A program made the translations under genes and the position numbers. The notes under the pieces were generated by a model. The model made no database searches. It was not told where the DNA came from and was given only the letters and a program-made list of their open reading frames with translations. A stretch of 16,666 nt of DNA. Origin: a virus. Taxonomy: Duplodnaviria; Heunggongvirae; Uroviricota; Caudoviricetes. The stretch is from positions 1-16,666 of the IMG/VR virus record IMGVR_UViG_2585427766_000008; one strand, 5' to 3'. Shown here piece by piece: positions 1,476 through 16,666 of this stretch. Every line of letters begins with the position of its first letter. The stretch's first letter is position 1.

Positions 1476-1550
1476 GATTGTGCTCCTGTGTAAGTTCAGG
1501 GCAGTATGTCGGGAGAAGCGCGTGACGGATATTAAAGGAGATTAAGAAGA

Positions 1551-4049: not shown

Positions 4050-4510
4050 TCGCTTTCCTCATAGTTCACTTCGGTTAACAGCGGGCCGGACGGTAAATCG
4101 CTGTCTTCGATAAAGATGCTTTCAGTCGCGAAGTCGAGGGCGTATTGCCACAGCCCCCTGACTTCACCGATAAACACCTCGCGGGTCAGCCAGATACGGC
4201 GGCGGCAGCCGGGCGGGGTGTAGCCACCGAGAATGCGGCGGACAGCATCCAGGACATTAATCGCCCCTTTTTTACCGTTGAGCTGGCGGAAGACCACCGT
4301 GACGCAGAGCTGGATAGTCTGAGACTGGATCACCGCACCGGTATCATCCGGCCTGTCAAAGCGCGAACCGGCATAGCTCAGCAGCAACGCGCCAACCGGA
4401 TGGTTCAGGCGATATTCAGCCGGTTTCTCCGGGAAGTACTCCACCTGCAGTTGCGGCAGCTTCTCGCGTAACCGGGCCAGTACCGCATCAAGGACGGGCA
4501 GAACGTTCAT
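4046..4510 (-). CDS. Mu gp37-like protein (DUF1834-like; head completion / tail attachment, function unknown)
   Basis: 154-aa ORF in the conserved slot between the gp36-like gene and the sheath. Family assignment is from memory of Mu-like gene order, not verified. Confidence 0.5.
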   Translation of the reverse strand: MNVLPVLDAVLARLREKLPQLQVEYFPEKPAEYRLNHPVGALLLSYAGSRFDRPDDTGAVIQSQTIQLCVTVVFRQLNGKKGAINVLDAVRRILGGYTPPGCRRRIWLTREVFIGEVRGLWQYALDFATESIFIEDSDLPSGPLLTEVNYEESE

Positions 4511-4956
4511 CAGTATTTCTCCAGTAAACCGTCACGACCGCCGAAAGTGGCCGGGCGACTGCGTACACGAAACTCGCCAGGCTCAGGCACATCTTTCTGA
4601 GTGGACGGCAGCCCCAGCGTGAGCCTGTTATCACGTAACTCCCTGAGTTGCCGCAGCGCTTCTTTGTGGTCATCCTTCACCGTATCCGGGAGGTCACCTT
4701 CCGGGCGGCGGGCGTAGAGCCGGTAACGGACCAGCGTGATGGCAATGTCCCGCAGAACAGTCGGTATCTCTGCCAGTGGCAGGATATAGCGTCCGCGCAG
4801 ATGGGCATCAATCAGCTCGTCGGCATAGCGGATACAGCTGTCCACCACACGGGTATTCACTGTTGCAGGCGAGTCGAAGTCCATCTCTTCACTGGTGAGC
4901 TCGATAAGCGTCCGCTCCGGCACCTGCGCAAGCAAATCCTCCAGGGTGCAGTACAT
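4510..4956 (-). CDS. Mu gp36-like protein (DUF1320-like; putative head-tail connector component)
   Basis: The track ORF (4510-5118) overlaps the upstream gene by 160 nt. The internal ATG at 4954-4956 lies 1 nt after the upstream stop (TGAcATG) and gives a 148-aa protein starting MYCTLEDLL, which resembles DUF1320-family N-termini as I recall them. Confidence 0.55.
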   Translation of the reverse strand: MYCTLEDLLAQVPERTLIELTSEEMDFDSPATVNTRVVDSCIRYADELIDAHLRGRYILPLAEIPTVLRDIAITLVRYRLYARRPEGDLPDTVKDDHKEALRQLRELRDNRLTLGLPSTQKDVPEPGEFRVRSRPATFGGRDGLLEKY

Positions 4957-4957
4957 G

Positions 4958-5296
4958 TCACACCCCGCGCAGGATACGAATGACGTCGCCTTCACCCCCG
5001 GCTTCATCAAGTGCAATACCACAGGATTTACCGTCGCCGGACTGCGGCACGGCTCTGGCCTGAGCATCTGACTGAACAGCCACACCACGGCTGACAGCGG
5101 CCCCGGCCTCGACAGCAATAATGCCCAGAACGCTCACCGGCGTGCTGTCGCCGGTAACAGCATCCACTTCGGCAACCCCGAGCGCTGCGGCACCGGCTTT
5201 ACAGGGGGTATTATCTGCCCCGACAAAACGCTGCTGTGCCAGTGCTGCCCCTGCCGTTACGGTTGTGATCAGAATGACCTGCTGAGTGGTTCCCAT
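4958..5296 (-). CDS. Small Ala/Gly/Val-rich head-associated protein (possible decoration or cement-type protein)
   Basis: 112-aa ORF directly after the major head gene, in the position of Mu J-like or decoration proteins. Identity is uncertain. Confidence 0.45.
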   Translation of the reverse strand: MGTTQQVILITTVTAGAALAQQRFVGADNTPCKAGAAALGVAEVDAVTGDSTPVSVLGIIAVEAGAAVSRGVAVQSDAQARAVPQSGDGKSCGIALDEAGGEGDVIRILRGV

Positions 5297-5305
5297 AACG
5301 CCTCC

Positions 5306-6259
5306 TTATTTACTGATACCGGTAATGAGATACCCGGCATCGCCACCAACCACGGCGACTTTGTAGATATCGGTATAACGGCAGTACTTCACCTTGCCAC
5401 CGGCTCCGTCGTATTTGTCGGCAACAGGCATCCCCTTACGACGCAGGGTGTAGCCGAAGGACGGCTCGTTCTCGTCCGCGCTGTCCGCCCCCGGCTGCGG
5501 TTTGCCGACATAGTGCAGCATCAGATTGTCTCCCCAGATATCCGCCGGCACGCTGTTCTTATCCATTGCCGCTTTCATGGACGGCAGGGAGACTGGGGCA
5601 CCGATGACGATCTCTTCGATCTGAAAGAGGTCCTGCAGGATTTCTGTGGTGATGCGCTTGCGTTCGTTGGCTCCGATGGCGGCCTGAATCGCCGGGTGGA
5701 ACTTCAGCAGCGCCATCACGCCGGCCCCCATGGTCATCAGGTTAGGACGCAGCCCCGTGGCCGTACGGACCGCTTCCATACCGGCTTCAATCACCCCGAT
5801 GGGGTCCCCCTTACCACCGGCCCAGCGATCACTGGCTGTCAGTTTTTTGACGTGCCCGGTACGGTAGACCTTTTCATCCTGAGCCAGACGGGCAGCGATA
5901 AGTTCACGGCGCAGGTTCACGCCATTCGTGGCGCGACGGATGGCCTTGCTCTCTTCGTTAAACATGGACTCCGCCTGCTCGCGATAGTCCACCGGCGCAG
6001 CCAGATCGTGTTCACCCAGCACCAGGTCCAGCGTGCCTGTTTTTTCACGAACCAGAACATTGCTGTCCGCCCCGACGGCACGCTCGGTGTCATATTCCAC
6101 AAAGGCGGTTTTCCCGAAGGTCGGTACACGCACGCCTTCCTTGTCCGTCAGCACGACGGGGAAAATACGTTCGCCGATGAATGCGGCATTTTTATAGCCA
6201 CGGGCGATACTGGTCAGTACCGGATCAACGACACGTTTACCTTTTAAGTAATCAGACAT
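5306..6259 (-). CDS. Major head (capsid) subunit (Mu gpT-like)
   Basis: 317-aa ORF immediately after the I protease/scaffold gene; size and position match the Mu-type major head protein. Confidence 0.75.
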   Translation of the reverse strand: MSDYLKGKRVVDPVLTSIARGYKNAAFIGERIFPVVLTDKEGVRVPTFGKTAFVEYDTERAVGADSNVLVREKTGTLDLVLGEHDLAAPVDYREQAESMFNEESKAIRRATNGVNLRRELIAARLAQDEKVYRTGHVKKLTASDRWAGGKGDPIGVIEAGMEAVRTATGLRPNLMTMGAGVMALLKFHPAIQAAIGANERKRITTEILQDLFQIEEIVIGAPVSLPSMKAAMDKNSVPADIWGDNLMLHYVGKPQPGADSADENEPSFGYTLRRKGMPVADKYDGAGGKVKYCRYTDIYKVAVVGGDAGYLITGISK

Positions 6260-6273
6260 GCTCTCTCCTTAAA

Positions 6274-6741
6274 TTACAGGCAGCGTGCGACAGCAGCCTC
6301 ATAGCTGATGCCTTCTTTTTTGGACAGGGCCACTGCTTTCTGATGCAGGGCCAGACGCTCAGGATCGGCTTCCGCAAACTCTGCCACATCCACCTTCACC
6401 GTGTCGCCGACACGCTCTTTTGTGGCCTGTTCGGCGAAATTCATCACCGGCTCCCCGTCGGAGAGCAATGAACGAAAGGCGGTGGCCAGCGGTGTGCGGC
6501 TTTCCCCCTCAGCAAACTCCACCGGCTTGTCGCCACCGGCGACGGCATCCAGCAGGGCAACCACCACGGAGGAGGCGCGGGGAGCCAGACGGCCCTCTGC
6601 GACCAGTTTTTCTGCAAAGGCCACATTGTCCTTATGCAGTTGCTCCTGTCTGACCTGTGCATCACGCGCATCGCGATCAGCAGCCTGCTGCTTCAGGCGG
6701 CGGTTCTCCTCCTGAAGGGCTTCAATCTCTTCTTTTGTCAT
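6274..6741 (-). CDS. Candidate nested scaffold protein (Mu gpZ-like) from an in-frame internal start within the I gene
   Basis: In-frame ATG at 6739-6741 (residue 217 of the I ORF) preceded by GAGGA with a 7-nt spacer. It would give a 155-aa coiled-coil-rich product (MTKEEIEALQEENRRLKQ...). Confidence 0.4.
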   Translation of the reverse strand: MTKEEIEALQEENRRLKQQAADRDARDAQVRQEQLHKDNVAFAEKLVAEGRLAPRASSVVVALLDAVAGGDKPVEFAEGESRTPLATAFRSLLSDGEPVMNFAEQATKERVGDTVKVDVAEFAEADPERLALHQKAVALSKKEGISYEAAVARCL

Positions 6742-7389
6742 CGATGATTCCTCGTTACTTGCGGAAGACGGCACCTGGCCTGTCTCACTGAATTGCGCAC
6801 CTGCTGCATCCTGCGACGGTGTGTCGCGGTACGCCTCTTCGCGCAGATTGTTGAGCTGCCATTCCGGCAGGACTTTTTCTGCTTCGTCCAGACTGAAGCG
6901 GGCGATCAGAAAATCGCGCAGCTTTCCCCACAGGGAGGCATTCGTGATGGCCTGCCAGTCGGCGAACTCCACCACACCTTCTTCCTGCTCACTGAAGGAC
7001 ACCTGTTTCAGCCCCTTGACGGAAGGTGGCTGTGCCCCGAGAAAGCCCACATGGCGCAGGTAGAGCACGCCGGGCTTCGGATTGGACGGTGAATCCGGGA
7101 GGTAGAAAGAGGCGGACACTTTTTTGAATCGTCCGTCGGTGACCATCTCAGCAAACTGCGGGTCCAGCTGGGCAGGCTCTGCCATCAGATCGACGCCGCT
7201 GAGCGACAGGGCTTTCACCCAGCCCCACGCCGGGTCTTCCGTTCTGGGATGACCAATCACGAGTGGTGCTTCATGGACGGACGGGTCATAGGCTTTCACG
7301 CAGGCGGCAAGATCGTCTGGCGTGAACGGCAGTTTTTTGCCGTGCATATCGGTATGAGTACCGGCTTTAAAAATGTGAATGGCTGACAT
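6274..7389 (-). CDS. Head maturation protease / scaffold protein (Mu gpI-like)
   Basis: 371-aa ORF with a protease-like N-terminal region and an Ala/Glu/Arg-rich coiled-coil C-terminal third; it sits between G and the major head gene as in Mu. Confidence 0.8.
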   Translation of the reverse strand: MSAIHIFKAGTHTDMHGKKLPFTPDDLAACVKAYDPSVHEAPLVIGHPRTEDPAWGWVKALSLSGVDLMAEPAQLDPQFAEMVTDGRFKKVSASFYLPDSPSNPKPGVLYLRHVGFLGAQPPSVKGLKQVSFSEQEEGVVEFADWQAITNASLWGKLRDFLIARFSLDEAEKVLPEWQLNNLREEAYRDTPSQDAAGAQFSETGQVPSSASNEESSMTKEEIEALQEENRRLKQQAADRDARDAQVRQEQLHKDNVAFAEKLVAEGRLAPRASSVVVALLDAVAGGDKPVEFAEGESRTPLATAFRSLLSDGEPVMNFAEQATKERVGDTVKVDVAEFAEADPERLALHQKAVALSKKEGISYEAAVARCL

Positions 7390-7525
7390 TTTGCTGTCCC
7401 GCGTTATGTTGTCGGAGACAGTTTGTGAGAAATGCAGGCCCGGCGATTTTAATCTGCTTTAGAAAACATCAGGGGAGAAGGACAGGGAAAGCAATACGGT
7501 GAACCGGAGGCGGTTATAAAACAGA
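7390..7525 (-). promoter_or_regulatory. Candidate late promoter region upstream of the I gene (PI-like)
   Basis: 136 bp of non-coding sequence between a terminator-like hairpin and the I start. It contains a -10-like TAAAAT on the minus strand. Mu has a C-dependent promoter in front of I. No activator site could be identified by eye. Confidence 0.3.
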
Positions 7526-7557
7526 GGCTGTAAAGCCTTTATAAAGGTAATACAGCC
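7526..7557 (-). terminator. Candidate rho-independent terminator after gene G (end of the lys-to-G transcription unit)
   Basis: Stem GGCTGTA/TACAGCC (7526-7532 / 7551-7557) enclosing the perfect 12-bp palindrome CCTTTATAAAGG. On the minus strand it is followed directly by UCUGUUUUAUAA. Confidence 0.45.
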
Positions 7558-7603
7558 CCTCATTCGCTGGCAATGATAAATCACCCGCCTGAAGAGAGAA
7601 AAC

Positions 7604-8062
7604 TCAGCGACGGGCCGCTGATTCAAGATGGCGGACAATGGTATCGAGGATGGGGATTACCACTTCAGGCTGTAGTTCTCCATCCCCCGTCACCGGCAGG
7701 AACGGGCGGGCCGGAAGTTCAACAGACTCATTACGCCCCGTTTTACCCCCGAACTGGTGAATGGCACCGTAAACAACGTTGGTCCCCACAACAGCCTGCC
7801 GGTCGTCATGGTCGGTTGATACTGACCCCATCAGACGCCCGGTATCCTGCAGTGTCTGCCCGTCACGCTCTTCCGCTGCCAGCGAGGGCATCCACCCCGG
7901 ACGCCCCTCATCAAGAAAGTTAAACTGTGTTTCCGCCAGCAGGGTTCCGGCAATTTTGCGCATCGCGGGCTCCAGGTCTGTGGCAGCAAGATCCAGCGCA
8001 CGGAGGCTCCGGCGCAGGGATTTATCGTTAATGGTGATACTGACCAGGTTATCGGAAGCCAT
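7604..8062 (-). CDS. Virion morphogenesis protein (Mu gpG-like)
   Basis: 152-aa ORF starting 3 nt after the F gene stop; it contains an FNFLDEGRPGW-type segment and has the size and position of Mu G. Confidence 0.7.
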   Translation of the reverse strand: MASDNLVSITINDKSLRRSLRALDLAATDLEPAMRKIAGTLLAETQFNFLDEGRPGWMPSLAAEERDGQTLQDTGRLMGSVSTDHDDRQAVVGTNVVYGAIHQFGGKTGRNESVELPARPFLPVTGDGELQPEVVIPILDTIVRHLESAARR

Positions 8063-8064
8063 TG

Positions 8065-8886
8065 TTATCCTCTCAGTTCCTGTTGTGCCAGTGGCTGAAG
8101 CGTACCCTGATAGCGGGCCAGGTCGGGACGGTATGCTGCCCCCGGTGCATAAGACCAGCCGACGTCGGTGGTCACCTTCGTGGTGCCGGTATTAAAGGTG
8201 GCCACGTTCCGCATTTCGCCGGTTTTCTCTGAGACCAGTTTCAGTTCCTGGCCCATGGCAGAGCCGGAGCTGATAACCTTCAGGCCACGGGCACGTACAT
8301 CCGCCGCACTCAGGGCAATCACACTACAGCGGCAGCGCCAGCCGTTCGGCGGGTAAAATGCCTGCCAGAACGGGTCATCCCAGCGCAGCACCAGACCATG
8401 CAGCGCCAGATGGCTCCTGCGGGTATGGCTGTCGTTGATGCCGGTATACATCCAGTACGGCCTGTCGTCGACGTTTTCCATCTGTTCCGCCCAACGACCG
8501 GCGCTGTAGAGTACGGACATATTGGTGCGAAAGATGGTATCGAGCCGCCACGGACTGCCCTGCTGAATGGTGACTGGCTCACCCGTTACCGGGTCAGTCG
8601 TGTCACGTGGTCCCCACCATCCCTTACGCTTCAGCACCGGCTCCAGCTCCTGCCGGAACCAGCGATCGGTTTTTCCTTCATCGACAGCCTGCTGCAGTGC
8701 CCCGCGAATATCTTCCAGGATATCCAGGCGGGTCACTTTAGCAACGGTAAAGGCGCGGGCATGGGCCTCCTGCCACATTTCTTCCCAGTCCCAGGTAATC
8801 TGATACCCTTTGGACTTCAGGTAGTTGATTGCCCGCTTCGGGGGAAGCGTCATGCAGTACGCCAGTTCAGCCGTTGTCACGCTCAT
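8065..8886 (-). CDS. Head morphogenesis protein (Mu F-like)
   Basis: 273-aa ORF after the portal gene (20-nt overlap) carrying the HTRRSHLALHG...PPNGWRCRC motif characteristic of the Mu F / SPP1 gp7 family. Confidence 0.85.
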   Translation of the reverse strand: MSVTTAELAYCMTLPPKRAINYLKSKGYQITWDWEEMWQEAHARAFTVAKVTRLDILEDIRGALQQAVDEGKTDRWFRQELEPVLKRKGWWGPRDTTDPVTGEPVTIQQGSPWRLDTIFRTNMSVLYSAGRWAEQMENVDDRPYWMYTGINDSHTRRSHLALHGLVLRWDDPFWQAFYPPNGWRCRCSVIALSAADVRARGLKVISSGSAMGQELKLVSEKTGEMRNVATFNTGTTKVTTDVGWSYAPGAAYRPDLARYQGTLQPLAQQELRG

Positions 8887-10363
8887 GCAGACGCCCCCAG
8901 ATATTTGTCACAAAGAGAATGCGGGCCAGCCGCTCCTGCAGATCGTCCGTGTTCATCTGAGGGTAGAGCTCCGCCAGTTCGCCCAGCAGCTCAGACGGGT
9001 TAACCCCATTTTCGACCCGCCTGAACAGAGGTGCCAGGACGGGTTCCAGCGTGCCATTTAACGCGCCTCCGTTCATCAGAATGTCCAGCGCGTCGTCAAG
9101 CTGCTGCTGAGCCTGAATATCAGCATCAATCGCCTCGGCAAATGACAGCGGCAGCATGTTATTCTGTCGTTCCGACGGTGGTGTCTCGTCAATATCGCCG
9201 TCCTGCAGTTGGTACTCACGCTTGAAGTACTGCGGGGTCAGACGCAGACCCGCCCGGGTGAGTTTTTCGTCGCGGGTGGCACGGGTGTCATCAATGGCCT
9301 CCTGTTCCCACATGGCCCAGACCGGACACGGCACATCGCCGAAGTTCAGGGTGACCACCGTTCTGATGACCTGATTCACTGCCGCCTGAATGATGTCCGC
9401 ATCCGCATCGCGGATATCAGCCGTTACCTCCAGCCCGGCCTGTGCAGAGGCCTTGTTACTGTTCGCTTCCGTGGTCTGATTCTGACCGAGTAATGCAATG
9501 GAGATCTCACTGCGTGACAGTGTGATCAGCTCGCGGAATACCTCGCTGCTGTCCGCCTTACCATCCGCGGCTTTGAGTTCGATGCTGCTGTCATCGGGGA
9601 TGGCGGCCACCGCGTCCTCCACCATCTGCTCCATGGAGTCCAGCAGTTTTTCAATCTCTGCATCATTTGCACCCCTCGGGTGCTTACCGATCACCCACGG
9701 GGAGCCAAACTTTTCGGCAAAGCGGAGCCAGAATTTCATCCCGCCTTTCTTGAAGGCGACCGGCCAGAAGCACATGGACAGGTCCGGGAAACCGTAAGGA
9801 TTGTCATACGAGGCATCCTGTGCCGGCACCACGAATTTTGACGGTGACAGCAGCTCACCCTCCACACCCGCATCACGCGCCCGGAAGCGCAGGCAGTTGT
9901 CCGTATCAAACTGAAACCACTCAGGCGGTTTGCCGACAATATCCGTCACCGCCCACGACCTGACCGAACGGCCCCACATGATTTCACAGGGCTGATACCC
10001 GTAGAGCACGGCATCGCTCATTTCACCGATGATGCGGGACAGATCCAGATCGTCGAGCATGTCGCGGATGAAACGGAAGACCCGGGCAGAGGCGTGACCA
10101 CGCTCCAGTCCACGCTCCAGCGATTTAAGCGCTGCTTTACGTCTGCGGATACAGCCCCCGACCAGCGGGTCGGTGCGCAGTTCGCGGTAGATACGGATAT
10201 CCCGTCCCTGAGCCTTGAGAATGGGATCAGGATTGGGCAGATACATGCCCAGTCCGTAAAAGTCGATCGCGCGGCTGCGGGAGGCAATCTGCGCGGTCAG
10301 TGATTTCTGAGGCTCAGAAAAAGCAACAAATTCATCGGGTGAAACCCAGATACCCCTCGCCAT
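8867..10363 (-). CDS. Portal protein (Mu gp29-like, DUF935-type)
   Basis: 498-aa ORF directly after the large terminase (TGATG overlap at 10361-10365); size and gene order fit. Confidence 0.8.
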   Translation of the reverse strand: MARGIWVSPDEFVAFSEPQKSLTAQIASRSRAIDFYGLGMYLPNPDPILKAQGRDIRIYRELRTDPLVGGCIRRRKAALKSLERGLERGHASARVFRFIRDMLDDLDLSRIIGEMSDAVLYGYQPCEIMWGRSVRSWAVTDIVGKPPEWFQFDTDNCLRFRARDAGVEGELLSPSKFVVPAQDASYDNPYGFPDLSMCFWPVAFKKGGMKFWLRFAEKFGSPWVIGKHPRGANDAEIEKLLDSMEQMVEDAVAAIPDDSSIELKAADGKADSSEVFRELITLSRSEISIALLGQNQTTEANSNKASAQAGLEVTADIRDADADIIQAAVNQVIRTVVTLNFGDVPCPVWAMWEQEAIDDTRATRDEKLTRAGLRLTPQYFKREYQLQDGDIDETPPSERQNNMLPLSFAEAIDADIQAQQQLDDALDILMNGGALNGTLEPVLAPLFRRVENGVNPSELLGELAELYPQMNTDDLQERLARILFVTNIWGRLHERDNG

Positions 10364-11958
10364 CAGAATCCCTCCAGCATACGGGCCGCCTGACGACGAC
10401 GGCGTGAGCTTGCCTTCACCGGCCCTTTGTTAATTTCACGGCTGGCGAAATACGCCAGCGCCAGTGCGATGGCTGAATCCCCGTGGCGTTTACCACCGTC
10501 AGCCTTTGCTTTTGAGCGTTGCTCCGGTACGCGGGGGACACCGTTCACCACCTGAACGGCCCGCAGGTCATCCAGTGTGTCTTCATCCTTTGGTAAGTCC
10601 ACCAGGTTACCGTCTTCCAGTGCAGCTTTGACCGGAGGCATATGCTCCCGGTACCAGCCTTCGGTTGGCATCACCTGCTGAACCCGGCTGGAGCCGTAGC
10701 GCTGCATGGCGTATTCAGCCAGATAGGCACCATTACCACGGGCATCAAACGCTGCACCCAGCAGACCGGGCAGGCCATCCATCAGATACCAGGTGATTTG
10801 CTCCTGCTGTCTGAACGGCACGTTACGCAGCTCCAGTACGAATGGCACGCGTCGTACCAGGTTCTTCTCCTGCAGCAGGGGATAGTCCACCGACAAATCA
10901 CCGCTACGGCCAAAGTCGCGCCCCAGGAAAGAGCGGGCATCAGTGGGGAGTGCCTCCAGCAAGGGTTTCAGATACTCATCAAGCCAGTCCTGCGTCTCGC
11001 GGAAGCGAACCTCATCAGACAGCAGTTCATAACCTTCCTTGCAGGTCAGACGCAATACCGGCGTATCAGCGGACATGCGGGACTCTATCAGGGCACGGGA
11101 CAGCCAGGCACCGCCACCGTTGGCCGGAATACAGTCAAGCTCTTCGGATGCGCCGGCACCGTAGAATTTGTACACCGATGCCATCCAGGCCTGCTCGGAT
11201 GCCTCCGACCATTCCTTCCCGGTGCGCAGACAGACGCGCCGGAACAGCCCCTCAGATACGGCTTCCCGGAAAGTGATGCGATGTATGCTGCCTCCCTGAC
11301 GTCCGGCACGGATATCCCCGATAAGCGTATTGAACGGATTGTCGTCACCGTTATGGGTGGAGATAACGCGTACCTTTCCCCCCCAGATAAGCATCGCCAG
11401 CGCCGCTTTCAGCAGTTCGTCCAGTTGCTCATGGAACGCCGCTTCGTCGATAACAATAATACCCTGACGGCCACGCAGGTTAGACGGGCGGCTGGAGAGC
11501 GCAACAATACGAAAGCCGGAGTCAGGAAATTTGATGGTGTAAGTCCTGATGTGTTTGTCGTCGTCGTCCTCTTCCCAGAATCCTTCTTCAATTTCACTGG
11601 CCGCATAGTTGAATGCCCGTGCCCACATCGCACACGCCTGAATGTATTCGACGGTCATGTCCTGGTTATAAGCGATGTAATACACATTCATCCCGCCTGC
11701 TGGCGCAGAAGAGGCGGCGGTCAGTACGTTATCGGATGCCTCAGCCCATGTAATACCGGTACGACGGCTCTTTTCTATCACCTTAAGCGGAGAGGTGTCT
11801 GCCACCCAGCGCTGCTGGTAAGGCAACAGAACGGGAGGGGCATCCAGCGCCGAGGTATCAGGCAAAACGGGAGCAAGGTTATTCCTCCCGTCCATGGGAC
11901 TCATCCCTTCGGGGCCGCCGCCAGCGGCGTTTAAAATCACTCCGGATGATTTTGTCAT
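10363..11958 (-). CDS. Terminase large subunit (Mu gp28-like)
   Basis: 531-aa ORF with a Walker B-like GIIVIDEAAF segment. Its start overlaps the upstream gp27-like gene (ATGA at 11955-11958). Confidence 0.85.
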   Translation of the reverse strand: MTKSSGVILNAAGGGPEGMSPMDGRNNLAPVLPDTSALDAPPVLLPYQQRWVADTSPLKVIEKSRRTGITWAEASDNVLTAASSAPAGGMNVYYIAYNQDMTVEYIQACAMWARAFNYAASEIEEGFWEEDDDDKHIRTYTIKFPDSGFRIVALSSRPSNLRGRQGIIVIDEAAFHEQLDELLKAALAMLIWGGKVRVISTHNGDDNPFNTLIGDIRAGRQGGSIHRITFREAVSEGLFRRVCLRTGKEWSEASEQAWMASVYKFYGAGASEELDCIPANGGGAWLSRALIESRMSADTPVLRLTCKEGYELLSDEVRFRETQDWLDEYLKPLLEALPTDARSFLGRDFGRSGDLSVDYPLLQEKNLVRRVPFVLELRNVPFRQQEQITWYLMDGLPGLLGAAFDARGNGAYLAEYAMQRYGSSRVQQVMPTEGWYREHMPPVKAALEDGNLVDLPKDEDTLDDLRAVQVVNGVPRVPEQRSKAKADGGKRHGDSAIALALAYFASREINKGPVKASSRRRRQAARMLEGF

Positions 11959-12500
11959 GTGGCAATCCCCAGAATCTCGCGACGAAGCGCCTGTACTGCG
12001 TCGCTTGACAGTCCCCCCTTACGGGCAATTTTCTCGGCGTTGCTGGCTGCCTGCTGCGCTCTGGCCCGTACTTCAGACTGGAACTTTTTGAGGTTGACGG
12101 ACGCGCGGGACAGCGTAGCCACATTCTTCGCCACCTTCGACAGCAGGGCCACGCGTTCTTTAGGATCGACTTCACCTTCTTCCGCCTCCTGCAACTGGAC
12201 AATACTCTCGAACAGCTCGGTCTGAATAAGGGCTATCACAGCCTCCGAACGCGCATCCTGATCGTCTGCTGCGCCTTCGGTCAGCATGCGGGCCGCTTCT
12301 GTTGCCGCACGGATAGCACCATAGCGGCGCTCAATCTTCTGTCCATAGCGATGGATAGCGGATTTGCTGATGACGTACCCCCGCTCACGCAGCAGGGACT
12401 CCAGCTCGTTATACCCGCTGAAGCCGGATTCAGTCAGCGCCCGTTCAAGCCAGCGGCGCACGTCTTCCGGCAGCTTTTCTATTGTGCTGCGTCTGGCCAT
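11955..12500 (-). CDS. Mu gp27-like protein (DUF3486-type; putative small terminase / DNA-binding subunit)
   Basis: 181-aa ORF immediately upstream of the large terminase, with a basic N-terminus and a coiled-coil C-terminal half. Confidence 0.6.
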   Translation of the reverse strand: MARRSTIEKLPEDVRRWLERALTESGFSGYNELESLLRERGYVISKSAIHRYGQKIERRYGAIRAATEAARMLTEGAADDQDARSEAVIALIQTELFESIVQLQEAEEGEVDPKERVALLSKVAKNVATLSRASVNLKKFQSEVRARAQQAASNAEKIARKGGLSSDAVQALRREILGIAT

Positions 12501-12811
12501 TATTCACTCCAGTACTTTTCCGGGCGGGCAATACCCGGACCACATTCCACGGTGTATTCCACCAGGTCTACGCCGAGGCGGGTCAGGTCAGCAAACCAGT
12601 CGCCAGAAGGTTTTTTCTCCAGCTCAACCATTTTACGGTCAGCCAGATAATCCAGTTCGCGGCGCAGTTCCAGCGGTGTGGTGTCCGGGTAGATGGCGCG
12701 GGACACGTCCAGCAGCAACGTTTCACTGGCGGTGTAAGGGCGGGTTTTGTTCAGGGCAACCAGCAAACTCCAGCGCAGGGATTCGCGGCGTACCCGGGTA
12801 ATATCGACCAT
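12500..12811 (-). CDS. Hypothetical protein (Mu gp26 position)
   Basis: 103-aa ORF whose ends abut both neighbours; no recognisable motif. Confidence 0.4.
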   Translation of the reverse strand: MVDITRVRRESLRWSLLVALNKTRPYTASETLLLDVSRAIYPDTTPLELRRELDYLADRKMVELEKKPSGDWFADLTRLGVDLVEYTVECGPGIARPEKYWSE

Positions 12812-13137
12812 TATTGACCTCCGGTATTGCGGTACTGCTGTACCACTTCCAGTTTGTTATAAAGCGCGTCCAGTTTGGCCTCGATGACTGTCTGGCCACG
12901 GATATAATCCTCGCGACGGACATAATTCAGCGGTAAATCCGCTTTAAATCGCATAAATTCTTTTTCCAGCTCGCCCCAGTTGGAGGCGGACTGTTGCAGG
13001 GCCTGTTCAAGGGAGGCGAATCGTGCCGCCTGGCGTTCTTCTGTTTTACTGAACAACCATTTGGCGAGCCCTCCCACAAACCCCATGAAGGTGAGCAGAA
13101 AACTCACCACCGTCCAGAATTCAACCTGCAGTGTCAT
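12811..13137 (-). CDS. Small membrane protein with N-terminal TM helix and coiled-coil region (Mu gp25-like)
   Basis: 108-aa ORF with the hydrophobic N-terminal segment WTVVSFLLTFMGFVGGLAKWLF followed by charged coiled-coil-like sequence; it lies between the spanin pair and the packaging genes. Confidence 0.45.
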   Translation of the reverse strand: MTLQVEFWTVVSFLLTFMGFVGGLAKWLFSKTEERQAARFASLEQALQQSASNWGELEKEFMRFKADLPLNYVRREDYIRGQTVIEAKLDALYNKLEVVQQYRNTGGQ

Positions 13138-13784
13138 TTCTGTAATCCTTCCCGTTCATCCAGTAACGCGTTTATCTGGTTCCGCCAGCGACGACATTGT
13201 CCTGCGTTGTCGATGATGTTGGCGAGAACGTCACGCTGGGAGACACCCGAATCGCGTAACCGGGTGTCAGTGGTTTCAGGTTGCCCGGTCGCTGTGCCAG
13301 AGCGGGTGCCAGCGGCGGCAACTGAGTCTGAATGACCGGTGTCGACGGATGCGTTGTCATATCCGAGTGCGGCGTTGTACTGGCGCACGAAACCGCGAGT
13401 AAACACGCACTCAATGGGATGGCTCTTACCTTTTTCATCAATCCAGCGCTGTGTGACATCGTTAATTTGCCCCTGTAGTTGTTTGTTCCGGCTCTCCAGT
13501 TGAGCAATCTGCTCAAGATAACCGGCTTCAGCCCGCTGCCCGGCGGCCACCTGCTCCTGATACCGTCTGGCCCAGGCCCGCAGCGCAGCATTCTCAAGCG
13601 TTGCCTGCTCCGTTTTGTACGCGTCAAATGCTGACTGCAACTGACTGAGCGCGGTATCACCGTCACGCTTTGCAGAGTCATGACCACTTCTGTATCCCAT
13701 GGCATACAGGCCGACCAGAAAGGCATTGATAAGAATGGCCAGCAGAATGCCGCGCCACGGCAGCTTTTTAACCAGATGCCGCAC
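13134..13784 (-). CDS. i-spanin (Rz-like inner-membrane spanin component)
   Basis: N-terminal TM segment (ILLAILINAFLVGLYAMGY) followed by a long periplasmic coiled-coil region (Q/A/L/E-rich). The track ORF starts at 13886 and would overlap the endolysin by 119 nt; a GTG at 13782-13784 preceded by GGGGAGG is the more likely start. The start position was worked out by codon arithmetic from the track translation. Confidence 0.6.
   Translation of the reverse strand: MRHLVKKLPWRGILLAILINAFLVGLYAMGYRSGHDSAKRDGDTALSQLQSAFDAYKTEQATLENAALRAWARRYQEQVAAGQRAEAGYLEQIAQLESRNKQLQGQINDVTQRWIDEKGKSHPIECVFTRGFVRQYNAALGYDNASVDTGHSDSVAAAGTRSGTATGQPETTDTRLRDSGVSQRDVLANIIDNAGQCRRWRNQINALLDEREGLQK
13172..13438 (-). 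CDS. o-spanin (Rz1-like outer-membrane lipoprotein) embedded in the +1 frame of the i-spanin gene
   Basis: Internal ATG at residue 122 of the 13172-13801 track ORF gives an 88-aa product, MKKVRAIPLSACLLAVSC..., with a lipoprotein signal, a lipobox-like LAVSC and a Pro-rich mature region (PVIQTQLPPLAPALAQRPGNLKPLTPG). It lies entirely inside the i-spanin ORF. Confidence 0.65.
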   Translation of the reverse strand: MKKVRAIPLSACLLAVSCASTTPHSDMTTHPSTPVIQTQLPPLAPALAQRPGNLKPLTPGYAIRVSPSVTFSPTSSTTQDNVVAGGTR

Positions 13785-14502
13785 AACTGCTGCCTCCCCA
13801 TGTGAGATATCGCGGTGCCAGTTCGCGCAGGATGCGCTGCGGATAATGGCGGTTCTCCCGCCAGCTGGCCGCATTGCGTCCGGCATTCACCGTGGCGACA
13901 TGTCCGAACCAGCGGGTGCTGTCCAGACCTTTCTGTGATGCAAGCCGCCTGTCCCGTTGTACCCAGCCCAGACCACCGTTATAGCCCGACAGTGTCATGG
14001 CCATACGCTCGCAGTCACTGGCGGCGCTGACACGCTGCCACAGCCAGCGGTCATAGCTGACCAGCGCCCGGATAGCCCATGCCGGATTAAACGGCTCACG
14101 ACTGCTCAGCATCGGTATCAACTGGCTTATCCAGTCGGCAGTGGCAGGCATGAACTGCGCCAGTCCCTGAGCGCCAGCCGGCGAGATCGCATCAGGTCGC
14201 CAGCCGCTTTCCTGATGCAGTTGCGCGGCGAAATCGGCCACCGGCGCAGACAGTCCCCATTCAAGCCGGGCATTACGGATCACATCATCGCGATACTGCA
14301 GCGCAGCCTGCGGGGGCTGCGCTGCGCATGCCTGGCTGAAAAAGCCGCCACACCAGAGCAGCCAGACAATCACCAGGTTGCCAGCAAGCTGCCACCAGAA
14401 GCTGTATTTATCGTTACGTGGTTCTCCGTGTCTGATGGCGGTTACGCCCAGACCAAAGGCGAACAGAATAATGAGGGTGATTTGAGGCCAGTTCATGGTC
14501 AC
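13768..14502 (-). CDS. Endolysin, lytic transglycosylase type (SLT domain) with N-terminal membrane-anchor / SAR-like region
   Basis: 244-aa ORF containing the SLT catalytic-region motif (LHQESGWRPDAISPAGAQGLAQFMPATA). Two hydrophobic segments in the first ~60 residues. Overlaps the upstream membrane-protein gene by 4 nt. Confidence 0.8.
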   Translation of the reverse strand: MTMNWPQITLIILFAFGLGVTAIRHGEPRNDKYSFWWQLAGNLVIVWLLWCGGFFSQACAAQPPQAALQYRDDVIRNARLEWGLSAPVADFAAQLHQESGWRPDAISPAGAQGLAQFMPATADWISQLIPMLSSREPFNPAWAIRALVSYDRWLWQRVSAASDCERMAMTLSGYNGGLGWVQRDRRLASQKGLDSTRWFGHVATVNAGRNAASWRENRHYPQRILRELAPRYLTWGGSSCAASG

Positions 14503-14849
14503 AGTCCTGTTGCCACAGCCAGGCAGACCGCTGCAACAATCAGTGCACGGCGGATTAACGCAGCAGAAAACACCAGGTGAAGGCCGGTCTGTACCGGGAA
14601 ACGCCCTTCAGCCATCAGCCTGTCGTCATGTTTCAGGTACTGACCGGGACGGGCTTTGGGGAAGAGCGAACGGTCAAGCCAGTAACCCAGCACTGCTGCC
14701 AGCGTGATAAGTGCCAGCTTGTAGATCACAACAGGCAACTGCTGTGGCGAGACCAGAGCGATGATGCCCAGCAACAGCACTGAGGTCAGCAGCCAGCCGC
14801 TGAGGCGAGGTTTTTTAACAGGGGGAATGAATTTTTTCAGGTTTTTCAT
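14499..14849 (-). CDS. Putative holin / small membrane protein with three predicted TM helices
   Basis: The ATG at 14847-14849 is preceded by GAGGAG with a 6-nt spacer; the track's longer ORF starts at a GTG at 14882 with no RBS. The 116-aa product has three hydrophobic segments and sits first in the lysis cassette. Holin assignment is positional. Confidence 0.45.
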   Translation of the reverse strand: MKNLKKFIPPVKKPRLSGWLLTSVLLLGIIALVSPQQLPVVIYKLALITLAAVLGYWLDRSLFPKARPGQYLKHDDRLMAEGRFPVQTGLHLVFSAALIRRALIVAAVCLAVATGL

Positions 14850-14963
14850 GTGTGTCTCCTCGTTTGGTGGAGACAGCATCACAAATGTGGCGGGATACGG
14901 ATTTTAAACAGCGTTAATAGTGAAGATGTAAACGTGCACTGCATGATGACTTTGAAAGAACGA

Positions 14964-14991
14964 CCAGCCCGGTACCCGAACACCGGGCTGG
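14964..14991 (-). terminator. Inverted repeat hairpin (10-bp stem, 8-nt loop) in the lysis / methyltransferase intergenic region; candidate minus-strand terminator or regulator site
   Basis: CCAGCCCGGT (14964-14973) pairs perfectly with ACCGGGCTGG (14982-14991). On the minus strand it is followed by UCGUUCUUUCAAAG. Confidence 0.35.
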
Positions 14992-15037
14992 CCATCGCCC
15001 CACAGGAATGCGCTGTGAGCCGACCGAGGTTCAGTCA

Positions 15038-15096
15038 GTCTCGCGAGACCAGACTAGCCTGCCATATTTTTTATAATTGTAAAAGGCTTACAGATT
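15038..15096 (+). promoter_or_regulatory. Candidate promoter of the methyltransferase gene with an operator-like palindrome
   Basis: Perfect -10 hexamer TATAAT at 15072-15077, about 20 nt upstream of the ATG at 15097; AAAGG RBS-like element 10 nt before the start. A perfect 12-bp palindrome GTCTCGCGAGAC (15038-15049) sits where a -35 would be; no good -35 hexamer. Confidence 0.4.
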
Positions 15097-15867
15097 ATGA
15101 AAATGCAGACATTACCCATCGTTCCATGGATTGGTGGCAAACGCCGCCTTGCAAAACACATCCTGCCGCTGTTTCCGGCGCATGAATGTTATGTGGAGCC
15201 GTTTTGTGGGGCAGCAGCGCTCTATTTTCTTAAGGTACCCGGCAAGATCGAAGTCATTAATGATATCAACGGTGAACTGGTGAACCTGTATCGGGTGGTA
15301 AAACATCATCTGGAAGAATTTGTACGCCAGTTCAAATGGGCGCTGGTCAGCCGGCAGATCTACAAATGGCTGCAGATCACCCCGGAAGAAACACTGACGG
15401 ATATCCAGCGTGCAGCACGGTTCTACTACCTTCAGAAGCAGGCGTTTGGAGGCAAGGTGGCGGAGCACAGCTTTGGTACCTCCACCATATCCCCGCCACG
15501 CTTCAACCTGCTGCGTATTGAAGAAGAACTGTCAGCGGCACACCTGCGGCTTTCCAGAACGGTCATAGAACACATGGACTGGCAACAGTGCATAGAACGA
15601 TATGATCGCCCGCATACGTTGTTCTACTGTGACCCTCCATACTGGGGAACGGAAGGTTATGGTGTGGAGTTCGGACTAGAAAATTATGATCATATGGCAG
15701 ATTTAGCACGCAGGATCAAAGGGAAGATGATTATATCGGTGAACGATATCCCGGAAATGCGGCAGGCATTCAACGGTCTAAATATTCAGTCGGTTGATAT
15801 CAGCTACAACCTCAAGATCACTGGCAAATCCAGTCGCAAGAAGGAACTCATTATCCTCAACTTTTGA
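15097..15867 (+). CDS. DNA N6-adenine methyltransferase, D12 class (Dam-like), orphan
   Basis: 256-aa ORF with the N-terminal AdoMet-binding motif (PWIGGKRRLAKHILPLFP...YVEPFCGAAALYF) and the catalytic DPPY motif (FYCDPPYWGTEGYG). No restriction-endonuclease partner is visible in the window. Confidence 0.85.
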   Translation: MKMQTLPIVPWIGGKRRLAKHILPLFPAHECYVEPFCGAAALYFLKVPGKIEVINDINGELVNLYRVVKHHLEEFVRQFKWALVSRQIYKWLQITPEETLTDIQRAARFYYLQKQAFGGKVAEHSFGTSTISPPRFNLLRIEEELSAAHLRLSRTVIEHMDWQQCIERYDRPHTLFYCDPPYWGTEGYGVEFGLENYDHMADLARRIKGKMIISVNDIPEMRQAFNGLNIQSVDISYNLKITGKSSRKKELIILNF

Positions 15868-16231
15868 CCGAATAGTAAGACTTCATGCAGTGAATCAAGT
15901 ACTGCATGAAGTCAAGGGCTGGTTTTGTGTACCAAAAATAAACAGTGATAGCGGTAATAATTCCCATAACTAGAACACCACGTATAATCCAGAACGTACG
16001 TTTCTGCGTGTCTAGTCGCGCAGAAATACTGCTAAATACACCAGCCACGTCATCTTTAATGAAGGAATATTCCTTATTAATCTGTTTTTCTTTGTATTCA
16101 ATTTCTTCGCCTAAGGCCTTTATAGATTGCATCTGGTTCGAAAGTGCCAGCCAGATTAACGTTGCAGCAAAAATGCATCCCAGAAGAATTATTGTGTTTG
16201 TTATCCCTTGGCCTGACCATTTCGTAGCCAC
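15857..16231 (-). CDS. Hypothetical small membrane protein (two predicted TM helices) in AT-rich DNA
   Basis: 124-aa ORF with hydrophobic segments ITNTIILLGCIFAATLIWLAL and FWIIRGVLVMGIITAITVYFWY flanking a charged K/E-rich segment. It starts at a GTG with no convincing RBS, and its 3' end passes through the 13-bp hairpin and overlaps the methyltransferase stop. An alternative plus-strand ORF covers part of the same DNA. Confidence 0.35.
   Translation of the reverse strand: MATKWSGQGITNTIILLGCIFAATLIWLALSNQMQSIKALGEEIEYKEKQINKEYSFIKDDVAGVFSSISARLDTQKRTFWIIRGVLVMGIITAITVYFWYTKPALDFMQYLIHCMKSYYSVKS
15879..15913. terminator. Perfect 13-bp-stem hairpin downstream of the methyltransferase gene; candidate bidirectional terminator
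   Basis: GACTTCATGCAGT (15879-15891) pairs with ACTGCATGAAGTC (15901-15913) around a 9-nt loop. It starts 12 nt after the methyltransferase stop. There is a U-rich tract a few nt downstream on the plus strand and a partly U-rich tract on the minus strand. Confidence 0.4.
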
Positions 16232-16303
16232 TTTGAATTGGGTAGCTACGATAACAGAGGCAACAGGAATGCCAAGTATATGGTTCTGGATATCTGAAAA
16301 CGC

Positions 16304-16666
16304 GGTAATGACTCCAACTTATTGATAGTGTTTTATGTTCAGATAATGCCCGATGACTTTGTCATGCAGCTCCACCGATTTTGAGAACGACAGCGACTTC
16401 CGTCCCAGCCGTGCCAGGTGCTGCCTCAGATTCAGGTTATGCCGCTCAATTCGCTGCGTATATCGCTTGCTGATTACGTGCAGCTTTCCCTTCAGGCGGG
16501 ATTCATACAGCGGCCAGCCATCCGTCATCCATATCACCACGTCAAAGGGTGACAGCAGGCTCATAAGACGCCCCAGCGTCGCCATAGTGCGTTCACCGAA
16601 TACGTGCGCAACAACCGTCTTCCGGAGACTGTCATACGCGTAAAACAGCCAGCGCTGGCGCGATTT
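16304..16666 (-). mobile_element. IS1, partial (terminal inverted repeat plus 3' part of insB; element continues beyond the window end)
   Basis: The plus strand from 16304 reads GGTAATGACTCCAACTTATTGATAGTGTTTTATGTTCAG..., the reverse complement of the canonical IS1 end, followed by sequence encoding the canonical InsB C-terminus. Confidence 0.9.
16319..16666 (-). CDS. insB: IS1 transposase InsB (InsAB' C-terminal portion); 5' end outside window
   Basis: The translation ends ...[88 protein letters not shown], matching IS1 InsB as I recall it. The frame stays open upstream to the window edge (116 codons, 16319-16666). Confidence 0.9.

What the first reader, a model, noticed from the sequence alone, without database searches (positions are those of the whole stretch)
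14850..15000. Lysis operon has a terminator-like hairpin upstream but no activator gene in the window
Upstream of the first lysis gene is a 10-bp-stem hairpin (14964-14991) followed by a U-rich tract in the minus-strand sense, then about 115 bp with only weak promoter-like hexamers. That fits an activator-dependent late promoter insulated from upstream transcription, as in Mu. But the expected activator gene (C/Mor family) is not upstream; the methyltransferase gene is there instead, on the opposite strand. Late genes may be transcriptionally orphaned unless an activator is supplied in trans.
Basis: inference. Interest (0 to 1): 0.4.

Follow-up and report, generated by a model that had tools for sequence, protein, structure and literature searches.

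The report
Terminator plus Mor-type lysis promoter
The hairpin is a real, evolutionarily conserved transcription terminator in front of an activator-dependent lysis promoter of a BcepMu-like prophage, and the "missing" activator gene is only missing because this draft contig stops inside an IS1 copy, since sister assemblies show the Mor gene about 10 kb beyond it.

Summary
The hairpin exists (10-bp perfect repeat at 14964-14991, extending to 12 bp at 14962-14993). On the minus strand it folds at -28.8 kcal/mol. Across 56 distinct relatives, 8 of its 12 pairs show compensatory changes. G-U pairs outnumber A-C pairs 60 to 9, so it folds as minus-strand RNA.

It ends a conserved ~110-nt three-hairpin module that always abuts the start of the dam methylase gene. 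In many relatives 1-2.6 kb separate it from the lysis genes.

The lysis promoter is a separate block at 14874-14917. It has a TTAA-N6-TTAA dyad about 42 bp upstream of the predicted start, no -35, and a weak -10 (GATGCT). The same block, at identical spacing, precedes the head and tail operons in the window and a baseplate operon in an intact relative. This is the Mu Mor/C promoter layout.

No Mor gene is in the window. But the window is a whole draft contig ending in IS1. Other assemblies hold the other flank of the same insertion (same 9-bp duplication), with the early operon and an intact Mor gene.

So the promoter and insulator reading is supported, and the "orphaned late genes" reading is not. 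This is an ordinary phage design. The dam-linked RNA module and an anti-Shine-Dalgarno fold-back in the leaders deserve follow-up.

The parts
14962..14993 (-). Terminator stem-loop (HP3): 12-bp stem GGCCAGCCCGGU / ACCGGGCUGGUC around a 6-8 nt loop.
   Evidence: 8 of 12 pairs show compensatory changes; 98.1% of cells are paired; 60 G-U cells versus 9 A-C cells.
14950..14961 (-). Tail after the stem, GUUCUUUCAAAG. A moderately U-rich tract whose first 4 nt can also pair with GAAC at 15028-15031.
   Evidence: 4-6 T in the first 9 nt in all 56 relatives. In many relatives homology to the window ends right after this tract. Helix 78-81/154-157.
14993..15025 (-). HP2 of the dam-linked module: invariant CACAG/CUGUG stem with a variable 6-7 nt loop, extended by G-U-rich pairs.
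15028..15059 (-). HP1 of the dam-linked module: a long imperfect hairpin around the palindrome GTCTCGCGAGAC (15038-15049). It overlaps the -35 region of the dam promoter on the other strand.
   Evidence: The palindrome differs between clades but stays a palindrome (GTCATCGATGAC, GTTCTCGAGAAC).
14904..14917 (-). TTAA-N6-TTAA dyad (TTAACGCTGTTTAA), the proposed Mor-binding site of the lysis promoter. Its centre is at 14910.5, about -42.5 from the predicted start.
   Evidence: Mu Pm has its dyad at -51 to -36, centred at -43.5 (PMC4287176).
14875..14880 (-). Proposed -10 hexamer GATGCT, preceded by TGT. No -35 match 16-18 bp upstream (AATCCG, 1 of 6). Predicted start near 14868.
   Evidence: Read from the sequence. 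The same nAnnCT hexamer sits 20 nt after TTAAWAT in all four late promoters.
14850..14875 (-). Leader with inverted repeat UGUCUCC (14875-14869) / GGAGACA (14859-14853). The 3' arm is the Shine-Dalgarno sequence. The 5' arm overlaps the -10 and the predicted start.
14499..14849 (-). Holin gene, first gene of the lysis operon. It is followed by SLT endolysin 13768-14496 and spanin 13134-13784.
15097..15867 (+). D12-class DNA adenine methylase (dam), divergent from the lysis operon. The three-hairpin module always starts at its start codon.
7419..7462 (-). Second copy of the late-promoter block, upstream of the head (protease/scaffold) operon gene that starts at 7389.
1502..1545 (-). Third copy of the late-promoter block, upstream of the tail gene that starts at 1475.
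16304..16666 (.). End of IS1, inserted in a 401-aa hypothetical gene of the repressor operon. The contig ends inside it. The target duplication GCGTTTTCA (minus strand) lies at 16295-16303.

Best explanation
The interval holds two independent elements of a BcepMu-like transposable prophage.

(1) Terminator. The hairpin at 14962-14993 plus its U-rich tail is a Rho-independent terminator acting on minus-strand RNA. It is the 3' end of a conserved ~110-nt, three-hairpin RNA module (14950-15059) that is physically tied to the start of the dam gene. It stops leftward transcription before that transcription reaches the lysis genes. The source may be divergent firing at the dam promoter region, or residual read-through of the repressor operon running antisense across dam.

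(2) Lysis promoter. About 30 bp further on lies the lysis promoter. It has a TTAA-N6-TTAA dyad centred about 42 bp upstream of the predicted start, no -35, and a weak -10 (GATGCT). It is switched on by the phage's single Mor-family activator, made from the last gene of the divergent early operon. The head, tail and baseplate operons carry the same block.

The activator gene is absent from the window only because the contig ends in an IS1 copy. In the same IS1-bearing prophage lineage it lies about 10 kb beyond IS1.

Shown here: the structure and its strand, the linkage to dam, the recurrence of the promoter block, and the Mor gene beyond IS1 in sister assemblies.

Inferred: termination activity, the start site, Mor binding to the dyad, and the origin of the terminated RNA.
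For: Hairpin:
- -28.8 kcal/mol, z = -6.75.
- In 56 distinct relatives 98.5% of cells are paired, against 93.0% in shuffles and 29-54% in slid controls. 14 pairs have changes on both sides, against 8.3 in shuffles. In the terminator helix 8 of 12 pairs are compensatory.
- G-U versus A-C cells in that helix are 60 versus 9, so it is selected as minus-strand RNA.
- The tail G(U/C)UCUUU is conserved.

Linkage to dam:
- All 83 nhmmer hits that reach the 5' end of the module, and all 67 hits from an independent pattern scan, start at the dam start codon.
- Homology to the window often ends right after the T tract.
- The holin lies 0.1-2.6 kb further on.

Promoter:
- The block is conserved upstream of the holin in 59 of 82 distinct sequences, whatever lies upstream of it.
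- The same pattern, at identical spacing, occurs at 7419-7462 and 1502-1545.
- An independent fourth hit precedes the baseplate genes in L001; 0.01 hits are expected by chance.
- It recurs before the head operon in distant relatives from Xenorhabdus, Dickeya, Serratia and Brenneria.
- The geometry is close to Mu Pm, whose dyad spans -51 to -36 with no -35. The Mu Plys -10 region TAGACTGCC resembles CATACTGCC and GATGCTGTC here.

Activator:
- The intact relative has PF08765 Mor, E = 1e-43. It is 31% identical to Mu Mor and 37% to Mu C.
- The IS1-truncated product P0053 lies on contigs that carry Mor through to the repressor, with the matching 9-bp duplication.
Against: - No transcript ends are available, so termination is not demonstrated.
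- The U tract is short and interrupted, and the simple scan did not call a terminator.
- The first tail bases can pair with an upstream GAAC, which could weaken termination.
- Most relatives have another strong hairpin at the convergent junction between dam and the repressor operon; here it is at 15879-15913. Little read-through may therefore reach this terminator.
- No well-conserved sigma-70 promoter for an RNA of its own was found: 9 of 12 matches in the window's clade, 6-7 of 12 elsewhere.
- The dyad-to--10 distance is 2-3 bp shorter than in Mu.
- The window's -10 is preceded by TGn, like an extended -10, so some activator-independent activity is possible.
- The Mor-bearing flank was seen in other assemblies (GCA_003604455.1, GCA_012619285.1), not in the source assembly GCA_000714135.1.
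Confidence: 0.72

Rival explanations
1. The three-hairpin module is a stand-alone regulatory small RNA of about 110 nt. It would be transcribed divergently from the dam promoter region, with the hairpin as its own terminator. Insulation of the lysis genes would then be a by-product. This overlaps with the main explanation and differs only in the purpose of the RNA.
For: - Three helices are supported by covariation and by G-U bias on one strand.
- The HP2 stem is invariant while its loop varies freely.
- The module is always retained next to dam, even when it is far from the lysis genes.
- Junction hairpins probably stop repressor-operon read-through earlier.
- The window's clade has TTTTCA-16-TACAAT, which would start the RNA near 15069.
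- (G/A)AAAAT and an A just before HP1 are invariant.
Against: - The candidate promoter is not conserved outside the window's clade.
- The invariant AAAAT could equally be the dam -10 (TATTTT) read on the other strand.
- No target, no conserved single-stranded seed and no Rfam family were found.
- The U tail is short for an Hfq-type small RNA.
Confidence: 0.3
2. The hairpin is the activator's binding dyad. In Mu Pm the Mor dyad is itself the terminator hairpin of the preceding operon, so it would be part of the promoter rather than a separate insulator.
For: The Mu Pm dyad AAAGCCGG-TTAAT-CCGGCTTTTTTT is annotated both as promoter and as terminator. A CATCAT -10-like hexamer lies about 30 bp after the hairpin centre.
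Against: - The stem sequence changes freely between relatives while pairing is kept, including G-U pairs. That pattern fits RNA, not a protein-binding site.
- The hairpin centre is about 110 bp from the predicted lysis start.
- The conserved promoter block is present in relatives that lack the hairpin.
- In many relatives the hairpin is 1-2.6 kb from the holin.
Confidence: 0.04
3. One reading: the prophage has lost its activator, so the late genes are transcriptionally orphaned.
For: No Mor homologue is in the window. The prophage is damaged: IS1 sits in a repressor-operon gene and an IS66-family element truncates the tape-measure gene. The source assembly beyond IS1 could not be read.
Against: - The window is a whole contig ending in a repeat.
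- The matching IS1 flank with the same 9-bp duplication carries the full early operon and Mor in 24 contigs read, out of 87 index blocks that list the truncated protein.
- In this phage family Mor is never next to the lysis genes in intact prophages.
Confidence: 0.06
4. HP1, HP2 and the hairpin are DNA-level operators, that is, palindromes bound by regulators of the dam promoter, and are not RNA structures.
For: HP1 overlaps the -35 region of the dam promoter. The HP2 arms CACAG/CTGTG are invariant, like a protein-binding site.
Against: - The strand-asymmetric G-U versus A-C counts (HP3 60:9, HP2 109:1, HP1 29:11) are not expected for duplex DNA sites.
- The HP2 spacer is 6 or 7 nt.
- The HP3 arms differ in sequence between clades.
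Confidence: 0.1

Closest known systems
Phage Mu middle and late promoters (Pm, Plys, PI, PP, Pmom), activated by Mor or C, with terminators closing the preceding operon
   Same: - A -10 without a -35.
- A dyad-symmetry activator site centred near -43.
- Several late operons sharing one site type; four were found here, as in Mu.
- A Mor/C-family activator encoded as the last gene of an earlier operon, after gemA.
- A terminator hairpin just upstream of the lysis promoter.
   Different: - There is one Mor/C-family gene instead of two, so no separate middle step is evident.
- The early operon is inverted relative to the late genes, so the activator gene is 11 kb from the lysis genes instead of adjacent.
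- The dyad is TTAA-N6-TTAA, AT-rich and 2-3 bp closer to the -10. In Mu the dyads are GC-rich and double as the terminator hairpin.
- The terminator here is separate, 30 bp upstream, and belongs to a dam cassette.
BcepMu-like transposable phages (genus Bcepmuvirus; Escherichia phage PhiKM, PQ738613)
   Same: Gene order and content match: holin, SLT endolysin and spanin, then Mu-type head and P2-type tail genes, with a divergent early operon that includes the transposase, Gam, GemA and Mor. Identity to PhiKM over the lysis and dam region is 95%.
   Different: This copy is a damaged prophage carrying IS1 and IS66-family insertions. PhiKM has two extra genes between the terminator and the holin.
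IS10 'fold-back inhibition' of read-through transcripts (recalled from my own knowledge; not tested here)
   Same: The leader inverted repeat would hide the Shine-Dalgarno sequence only in RNA that enters from upstream, because the 5' arm lies at or before the promoter's own start. This gives a translational second layer of insulation.
   Different: It applies to phage late operons, not to a transposase gene. The start sites are predicted, not mapped.
Short terminated transcripts upstream of phage late genes (lambda 6S RNA ending at tR')
   Same: A short structured RNA ends at a terminator just before the lysis genes.
   Different: There is no sign of antitermination control. The module is linked to dam, is often separated from the lysis genes by genes on the opposite strand, and the late promoter lies downstream of the terminator.

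Membership tests
Mor/C-dependent promoter (phage Mu type) | A recognisable -10 hexamer but no -35 hexamer | tested here: met
   GATGCT at 14880-14875. The best -35 candidate at 16-18 bp spacing matches 1 of 6. No sigma-70 site was called on the minus strand in 14850-15000. Caveat: a TGn precedes the -10 in this clade.
Mor/C-dependent promoter (phage Mu type) | Dyad-symmetry element just upstream of, or overlapping, the -35 region (Mu Pm: -51 to -36, centre -43.5) | tested here: met
   TTAA-N6-TTAA at 14917-14904, centred about -42.5 from the predicted start. The spacing is identical in four late promoters. The position depends on a predicted, unmapped start site (one search gives the Mu values).
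Mor/C-dependent promoter (phage Mu type) | The same site type is shared by several late operons of the phage | tested here: met
   Lysis, head and tail operons in the window, the baseplate operon in L001, and head operons of distant relatives.
Mor/C-dependent promoter (phage Mu type) | A Mor/C-family activator is encoded by the same phage | tested here: inconclusive
   Absent from the window. Present in the 99.98%-identical intact prophage and on the other flank of the same IS1 insertion in other assemblies. The source assembly itself could not be checked.
Mor/C-dependent promoter (phage Mu type) | Transcription requires the activator, and the activator binds the dyad | not testable with these tools
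   Needs reporter, footprint or in vitro transcription assays.
Rho-independent (intrinsic) terminator | A stable GC-rich stem-loop | tested here: met
   A 12-bp stem at -28.8 kcal/mol. The median across 56 relatives is -26.7 kcal/mol. Pairing is kept by compensatory changes.
Rho-independent (intrinsic) terminator | A U tract immediately after the stem | tested here: inconclusive
   GUUCUUUCA has 4-6 U in 9 nt and is conserved, but it is interrupted. The consensus scan did not call it.
Rho-independent (intrinsic) terminator | RNA 3' ends map to the U tract | not testable with these tools
   No transcriptome data were available. Indirect support: homology between relatives breaks right after the T tract.
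Known RNA families (Rfam 15) | A match to a curated covariance model | tested here: not met
   For 14700-15300 on both strands at E up to 10, the only hit was a chance snoRNA match inside the holin gene.
BcepMu-like transposable phage | Mu-type transposition and head genes, with the early operon divergent from the lysis and late genes and Mor at the end of the early operon | tested here: met
   Annotations of L001 and PhiKM, Pfam families of called genes, and the record's taxonomy, Bcepmuvirus.

The most novel reading that the evidence does not exclude
The ~110-nt three-hairpin element between dam and the lysis genes may be an undescribed phage regulatory RNA, made in the lysogen from the dam promoter region. 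Together with the anti-Shine-Dalgarno fold-back in every late-operon leader, it would form a two-layer safeguard: transcriptional stop plus translational masking of read-through RNA. This safeguard would keep holin and endolysin silent until Mor fires the promoters. Beyond termination, the RNA could act on dam expression or on the lysis-lysogeny decision.
Probability: 0.25. Interest if true: 0.55.

Novelty: new member of a known kind. Interest (0 to 1): 0.33.

Why it matters
For the scan, an apparent anomaly ("late genes without their activator") turns out to be a contig-end artefact combined with a comparison to the wrong model phage (Mu instead of BcepMu).

For phage biology, the work gives a concrete, testable late-promoter consensus for enterobacterial BcepMu-like prophages: YTAA-N6-TTAAWATC-N19-nAnnCT. 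These prophages are common in E. coli, Klebsiella, Serratia, Xenorhabdus and plant pathogens.

It also shows that the lysis cassette is shielded by a conserved terminator.

Two inexpensive leads follow: a conserved structured RNA tied to a prophage dam gene, and a possible fold-back that blocks translation of read-through transcripts. Neither changes current understanding unless confirmed experimentally.

Tried and rejected
(1) Hairpin as the Mor-binding dyad. This was my first idea, and Mu Pm is a precedent. I rejected it because the stem covaries as RNA, and because the true conserved promoter block lies elsewhere and survives without the hairpin.

(2) The module as a 5' leader of the dam mRNA on the plus strand. 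Rejected because of the G-U versus A-C asymmetry, and because homology ends at the T tract, which leaves no conserved promoter to its left.

(3) The module as a leader or attenuator for the downstream genes. Rejected because, where genes are inserted between it and the holin, they lie on the opposite strand.

(4) Rfam search: nothing found.

(5) A conserved sigma-70 promoter for a small RNA of its own: not found outside the window's clade.

(6) A Mor box upstream of dam or of the module: none found.

(7) Finding the window's IS1 or IS66 junctions in 5,426 complete E. coli genomes: no genome holds either junction.

(8) Reading beyond IS1 in the source assembly itself was not possible. Every contig carrying this lineage's truncated tape-measure gene is under 20 kb. 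I used the IS1-truncated gene product to find the other flank in sister assemblies instead.

(9) L028 (Brenneria), where Mor lies 1.3 kb from the holin, proved to be a deletion remnant and is uninformative.

(10) A 21-codon ORF starting at 14945 on the minus strand overlaps the promoter. It has no Shine-Dalgarno sequence and is not conserved in frame in other relatives (read).

(11) Literature searches found no described small RNA or promoter study for these phages.

Full report
**What the window is**

The window equals a complete 16,666-bp draft contig, NCBI GCA_000714135.1 JOQO01000066.1.

- Positions 186-16303 are 99.98% identical to a prophage of E. coli DLI.5a (locus L001; window coordinate = L001 coordinate - 7001).
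- Positions 1-185 are the end of an IS66-family transposase gene, which truncates the tape-measure gene.
- Positions 16304-16666 are an end of IS1, inserted in a 401-aa hypothetical gene.

The prophage is BcepMu-like. The closest deposited phage, PhiKM, is classified in Bcepmuvirus.

In the intact relative the order, in window orientation, is as follows:

1. Tail, head and lysis genes on the minus strand.
2. dam on the plus strand.
3. A minus-strand operon: HTH repressor, nucleoid-associated protein and the hypothetical gene.
4. A plus-strand early operon: transposase, Gam, GemA and others. It ends with a single Mor-family gene (PF08765, E = 1e-43) at the prophage end, 11.4 kb from the holin start.

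**The observation**

The 10-bp perfect inverted repeat at 14964-14973 / 14982-14991 is real. With one G-U pair it extends to a 12-bp stem at 14962-14993.

As minus-strand RNA it folds at -28.8 kcal/mol, z = -6.75. The plus strand gives -21.3 kcal/mol. The window holds only seven comparable inverted repeats.

The tail, GUUCUUUCA, is only moderately U-rich, and the simple scan did not call a terminator. No sigma-70-like promoter is called on the minus strand between the hairpin and the holin start at 14849. No Mor/C homologue is encoded in the window.

**The hairpin is conserved as RNA and belongs to dam**

I collected 118 relatives through the holin protein. I then searched them with the minus-strand sequence 15100 to 14930.

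- The hits that reach the 5' end of the query begin at the dam start codon.
- In many loci, similarity to the window stops right after the T tract, and 1-1.7 kb of other DNA lies between the hairpin and the holin.
- An independent scan of viral contigs with a pattern from the middle hairpin found 77 stretches. Of these, 67 hold the module, and in every one it abuts dam. The holin lies 0.1-2.6 kb further on.

An alignment of 56 distinct sequences (A1) gives a consensus of three hairpins.

| Measure | Observed | Control |
|---|---|---|
| Cells forming standard pairs | 98.5% | 93.0% in shuffles; 29-54% in slid controls |
| Pairs with changes on both sides | 14 | 8.3 in shuffles |
| Terminator helix pairs that are compensatory | 8 of 12 | n/a |

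Within that helix, G-U cells outnumber A-C cells 60 to 9. This asymmetry makes sense only if the window's minus strand is the strand that folds, that is, as RNA. The stem is strong in almost all relatives (median -26.7 kcal/mol), and the tail G(U/C)UCUUU is conserved.

Rfam has no matching family.

**Where the terminated RNA starts is open**

In all relatives examined, dam is convergent with the repressor operon, which runs in the lysis direction. Read-through antisense across dam would therefore meet this terminator just before the lysis genes.

However, most relatives have another strong hairpin at the convergent junction. Here it is the 13-bp perfect repeat at 15879-15913. Much of that transcription probably stops earlier.

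The alternative is a start next to the dam promoter. The window's clade has TTTTCA-16-TACAAT, which would start RNA near 15069. Other clades have only 6-7 of 12 matches.

Either way, the element stops minus-strand RNA before the lysis cassette. Where other genes separate it from the holin, they lie on the opposite strand, so it is not a leader for downstream genes.

**The real lysis promoter**

Immediately upstream of the holin, relatives share a block that does not depend on the upstream context. On the minus strand it reads CACTATTAACGCTGTTTAAAATCC, then 18 nt, then GATGCT, then GTCTCC.

The same arrangement occurs three times in the window, all on the late strand in intergenic gaps: 14874-14917 (lysis), 7419-7462 (head) and 1502-1545 (tail). 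Its form is YTAA-N6-TTAAWATCS-N18-SAWRCTG. The pattern was derived from these three sites, so they do not test it.

Two independent tests do:

- A fourth hit at L001 2413-2456, before the baseplate gene, with 2 mismatches and 0.01 hits expected by chance.
- Recurrence before the head operon in distant relatives from Xenorhabdus, Dickeya, Serratia, Brenneria and others.

Taking GATGCT (14880-14875) as the -10, the start is predicted near 14868 and the dyad TTAA-N6-TTAA is centred near -42.5. There is no -35.

This is the layout of Mu Pm, where a Mor dimer binds a dyad at -51 to -36 (centre -43.5) on a promoter without a -35. It is also the layout of the four C-dependent late promoters (PMC4287176; PMC4461284; bioRxiv 10.1101/2025.05.02.651988). 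The Mu Plys -10 region, TAGACTGCC, resembles the ones here.

The Mor protein of the intact relative is 31% identical to Mu Mor and 37% identical to Mu C.

Differences from Mu:

- The dyad sequence is different.
- The dyad is 2-3 bp closer to the -10.
- There is one activator gene instead of two.
- The terminator is separate, whereas in Mu the hairpin doubles as the binding dyad.

**The missing activator**

The half of the IS1-disrupted gene that is absent from the window was used as a query.

Its cluster contains a 255-aa partial product cut at contig ends, and a 264-aa product that runs into IS1. The latter is KEL41317.1 from E. coli 5-172-05_S3_C3, listed in 87 index blocks.

Contigs carrying them, for example GCA_003604455.1 QZLQ01000292.1, read in this order: Mor, GemA, further early genes, Gam, transposase, repressor, nucleoid-associated protein, the truncated gene, then IS1 InsA.

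The flank ends in GCGTTTTCA followed by the IS1 left end. The window's flank, read on the minus strand, starts with the IS1 right end followed by GCGTTTTCA. This is the 9-bp target duplication of a simple IS1 insertion.

So in this prophage lineage the Mor gene lies about 10 kb beyond IS1, at its normal place. I could not read the source assembly itself beyond IS1.

The prophage is nevertheless defective for other reasons, because the tape-measure gene is cut by the IS66-family element.

**A second possible layer of insulation**

In the late-operon leaders, the bases right after the -10 (UGUCUCC, 14875-14869) are complementary to the Shine-Dalgarno region (GGAGACA, 14859-14853).

| 76 distinct late-promoter leaders | Shine-Dalgarno paired | Mean energy |
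|---|---|---|
| RNA includes the upstream arm | 67 of 76 | -15.0 kcal/mol |
| RNA starts at the predicted +1 | 3 of 76 | -0.8 kcal/mol |

In the Burkholderiales relatives the 5' arm lies between the dyad and the -10, so it cannot be part of promoter-initiated RNA. Covariation support is modest: a 6-bp core, with 2 pairs changed on both sides.

If the predicted starts are right, only read-through RNA would be translationally masked. This is like IS10 fold-back inhibition, which I recall from my own knowledge and did not test.

**Verdict**

The promoter and insulator reading is essentially right and is now anchored to precise elements. The 'orphaned late genes' reading is an artefact of a contig end and of using Mu's gene order for a BcepMu-type phage.

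The design is a new instance of a known kind. The dam-linked structured RNA and the leader fold-back are the only parts that might be new.

Noticed in passing
window 14993-15059 (minus strand): Two further conserved hairpins lie upstream of the terminator. HP1 surrounds the palindrome GTCTCGCGAGAC. HP2 has an invariant CACAG/CUGUG stem and a free loop. Together with the terminator they form a ~110-nt module that always abuts the dam start codon. It has no Rfam family and no known function.
   Followed up: partly
window 14850-14875, 7390-7420 and 1476-1503 (minus strand): Each late-operon leader has an inverted repeat that pairs the bases just after the -10 with the Shine-Dalgarno sequence. It would form only in RNA that enters from upstream, which suggests translational masking of read-through transcripts.
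   Followed up: partly
window 15879-15913: A 13-bp perfect inverted repeat with a 9-nt loop (about -20 kcal/mol) lies at the convergent junction, 12 nt after the dam stop and inside the last codons of the 401-aa gene. It is probably a terminator for the convergent genes. Most relatives have a different strong hairpin at the same junction.
   Followed up: partly
window 1-185 and ORF 182-982 (minus strand): An IS66-family element end truncates the tail tape-measure gene to 266 aa. The identical truncated product occurs in 25 index blocks, including human gut metagenomes, so this is a lineage marker. The prophage is probably unable to build tails.
   Followed up: partly
window 16295-16666; L130 10760-11066: IS1 is inserted in the 401-aa hypothetical gene of the repressor operon, with the 9-bp duplication GCGTTTTCA. 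None of 5,426 complete E. coli genomes carries this junction or the IS66 junction.
   Followed up: yes
L010 9842-9909, L016 5883-5949, L100 2853-2909: Some relatives keep a decayed partial copy of the hairpin's 3' half and tail next to the lysis promoter, while the intact module stays next to dam about 1 kb away. This suggests that extra genes were inserted at or within the hairpin.
   Followed up: no
L001 2413-2456 (outside the window): A fourth late-promoter block precedes the baseplate gp25-like gene, giving four late promoters in all, as in Mu.
   Followed up: partly
window 15038-15077 (plus strand): The dam promoter also seems to lack a -35. A conserved TATTTT lies at 15065-15070, with the HP1 palindrome where a -35 would be. 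In this clade a TATAAT at 15072-15077 overlaps, back to back, a TACAAT on the other strand. How dam is regulated is unknown.
   Followed up: no
L028 8319-9819: A Brenneria salicis relative has a truncated dam fused next to gemA and Mor. This is a deletion that removed the whole early region while keeping the module and the lysis promoter.
   Followed up: partly
window about 1140-1475 (L001 8141-8476): The tail assembly chaperone gene is annotated in the relative as a pseudogene with an internal stop, next to a GpE-family gene. This is more likely the usual programmed frameshift of P2-type tail chaperones than a defect.
   Followed up: no
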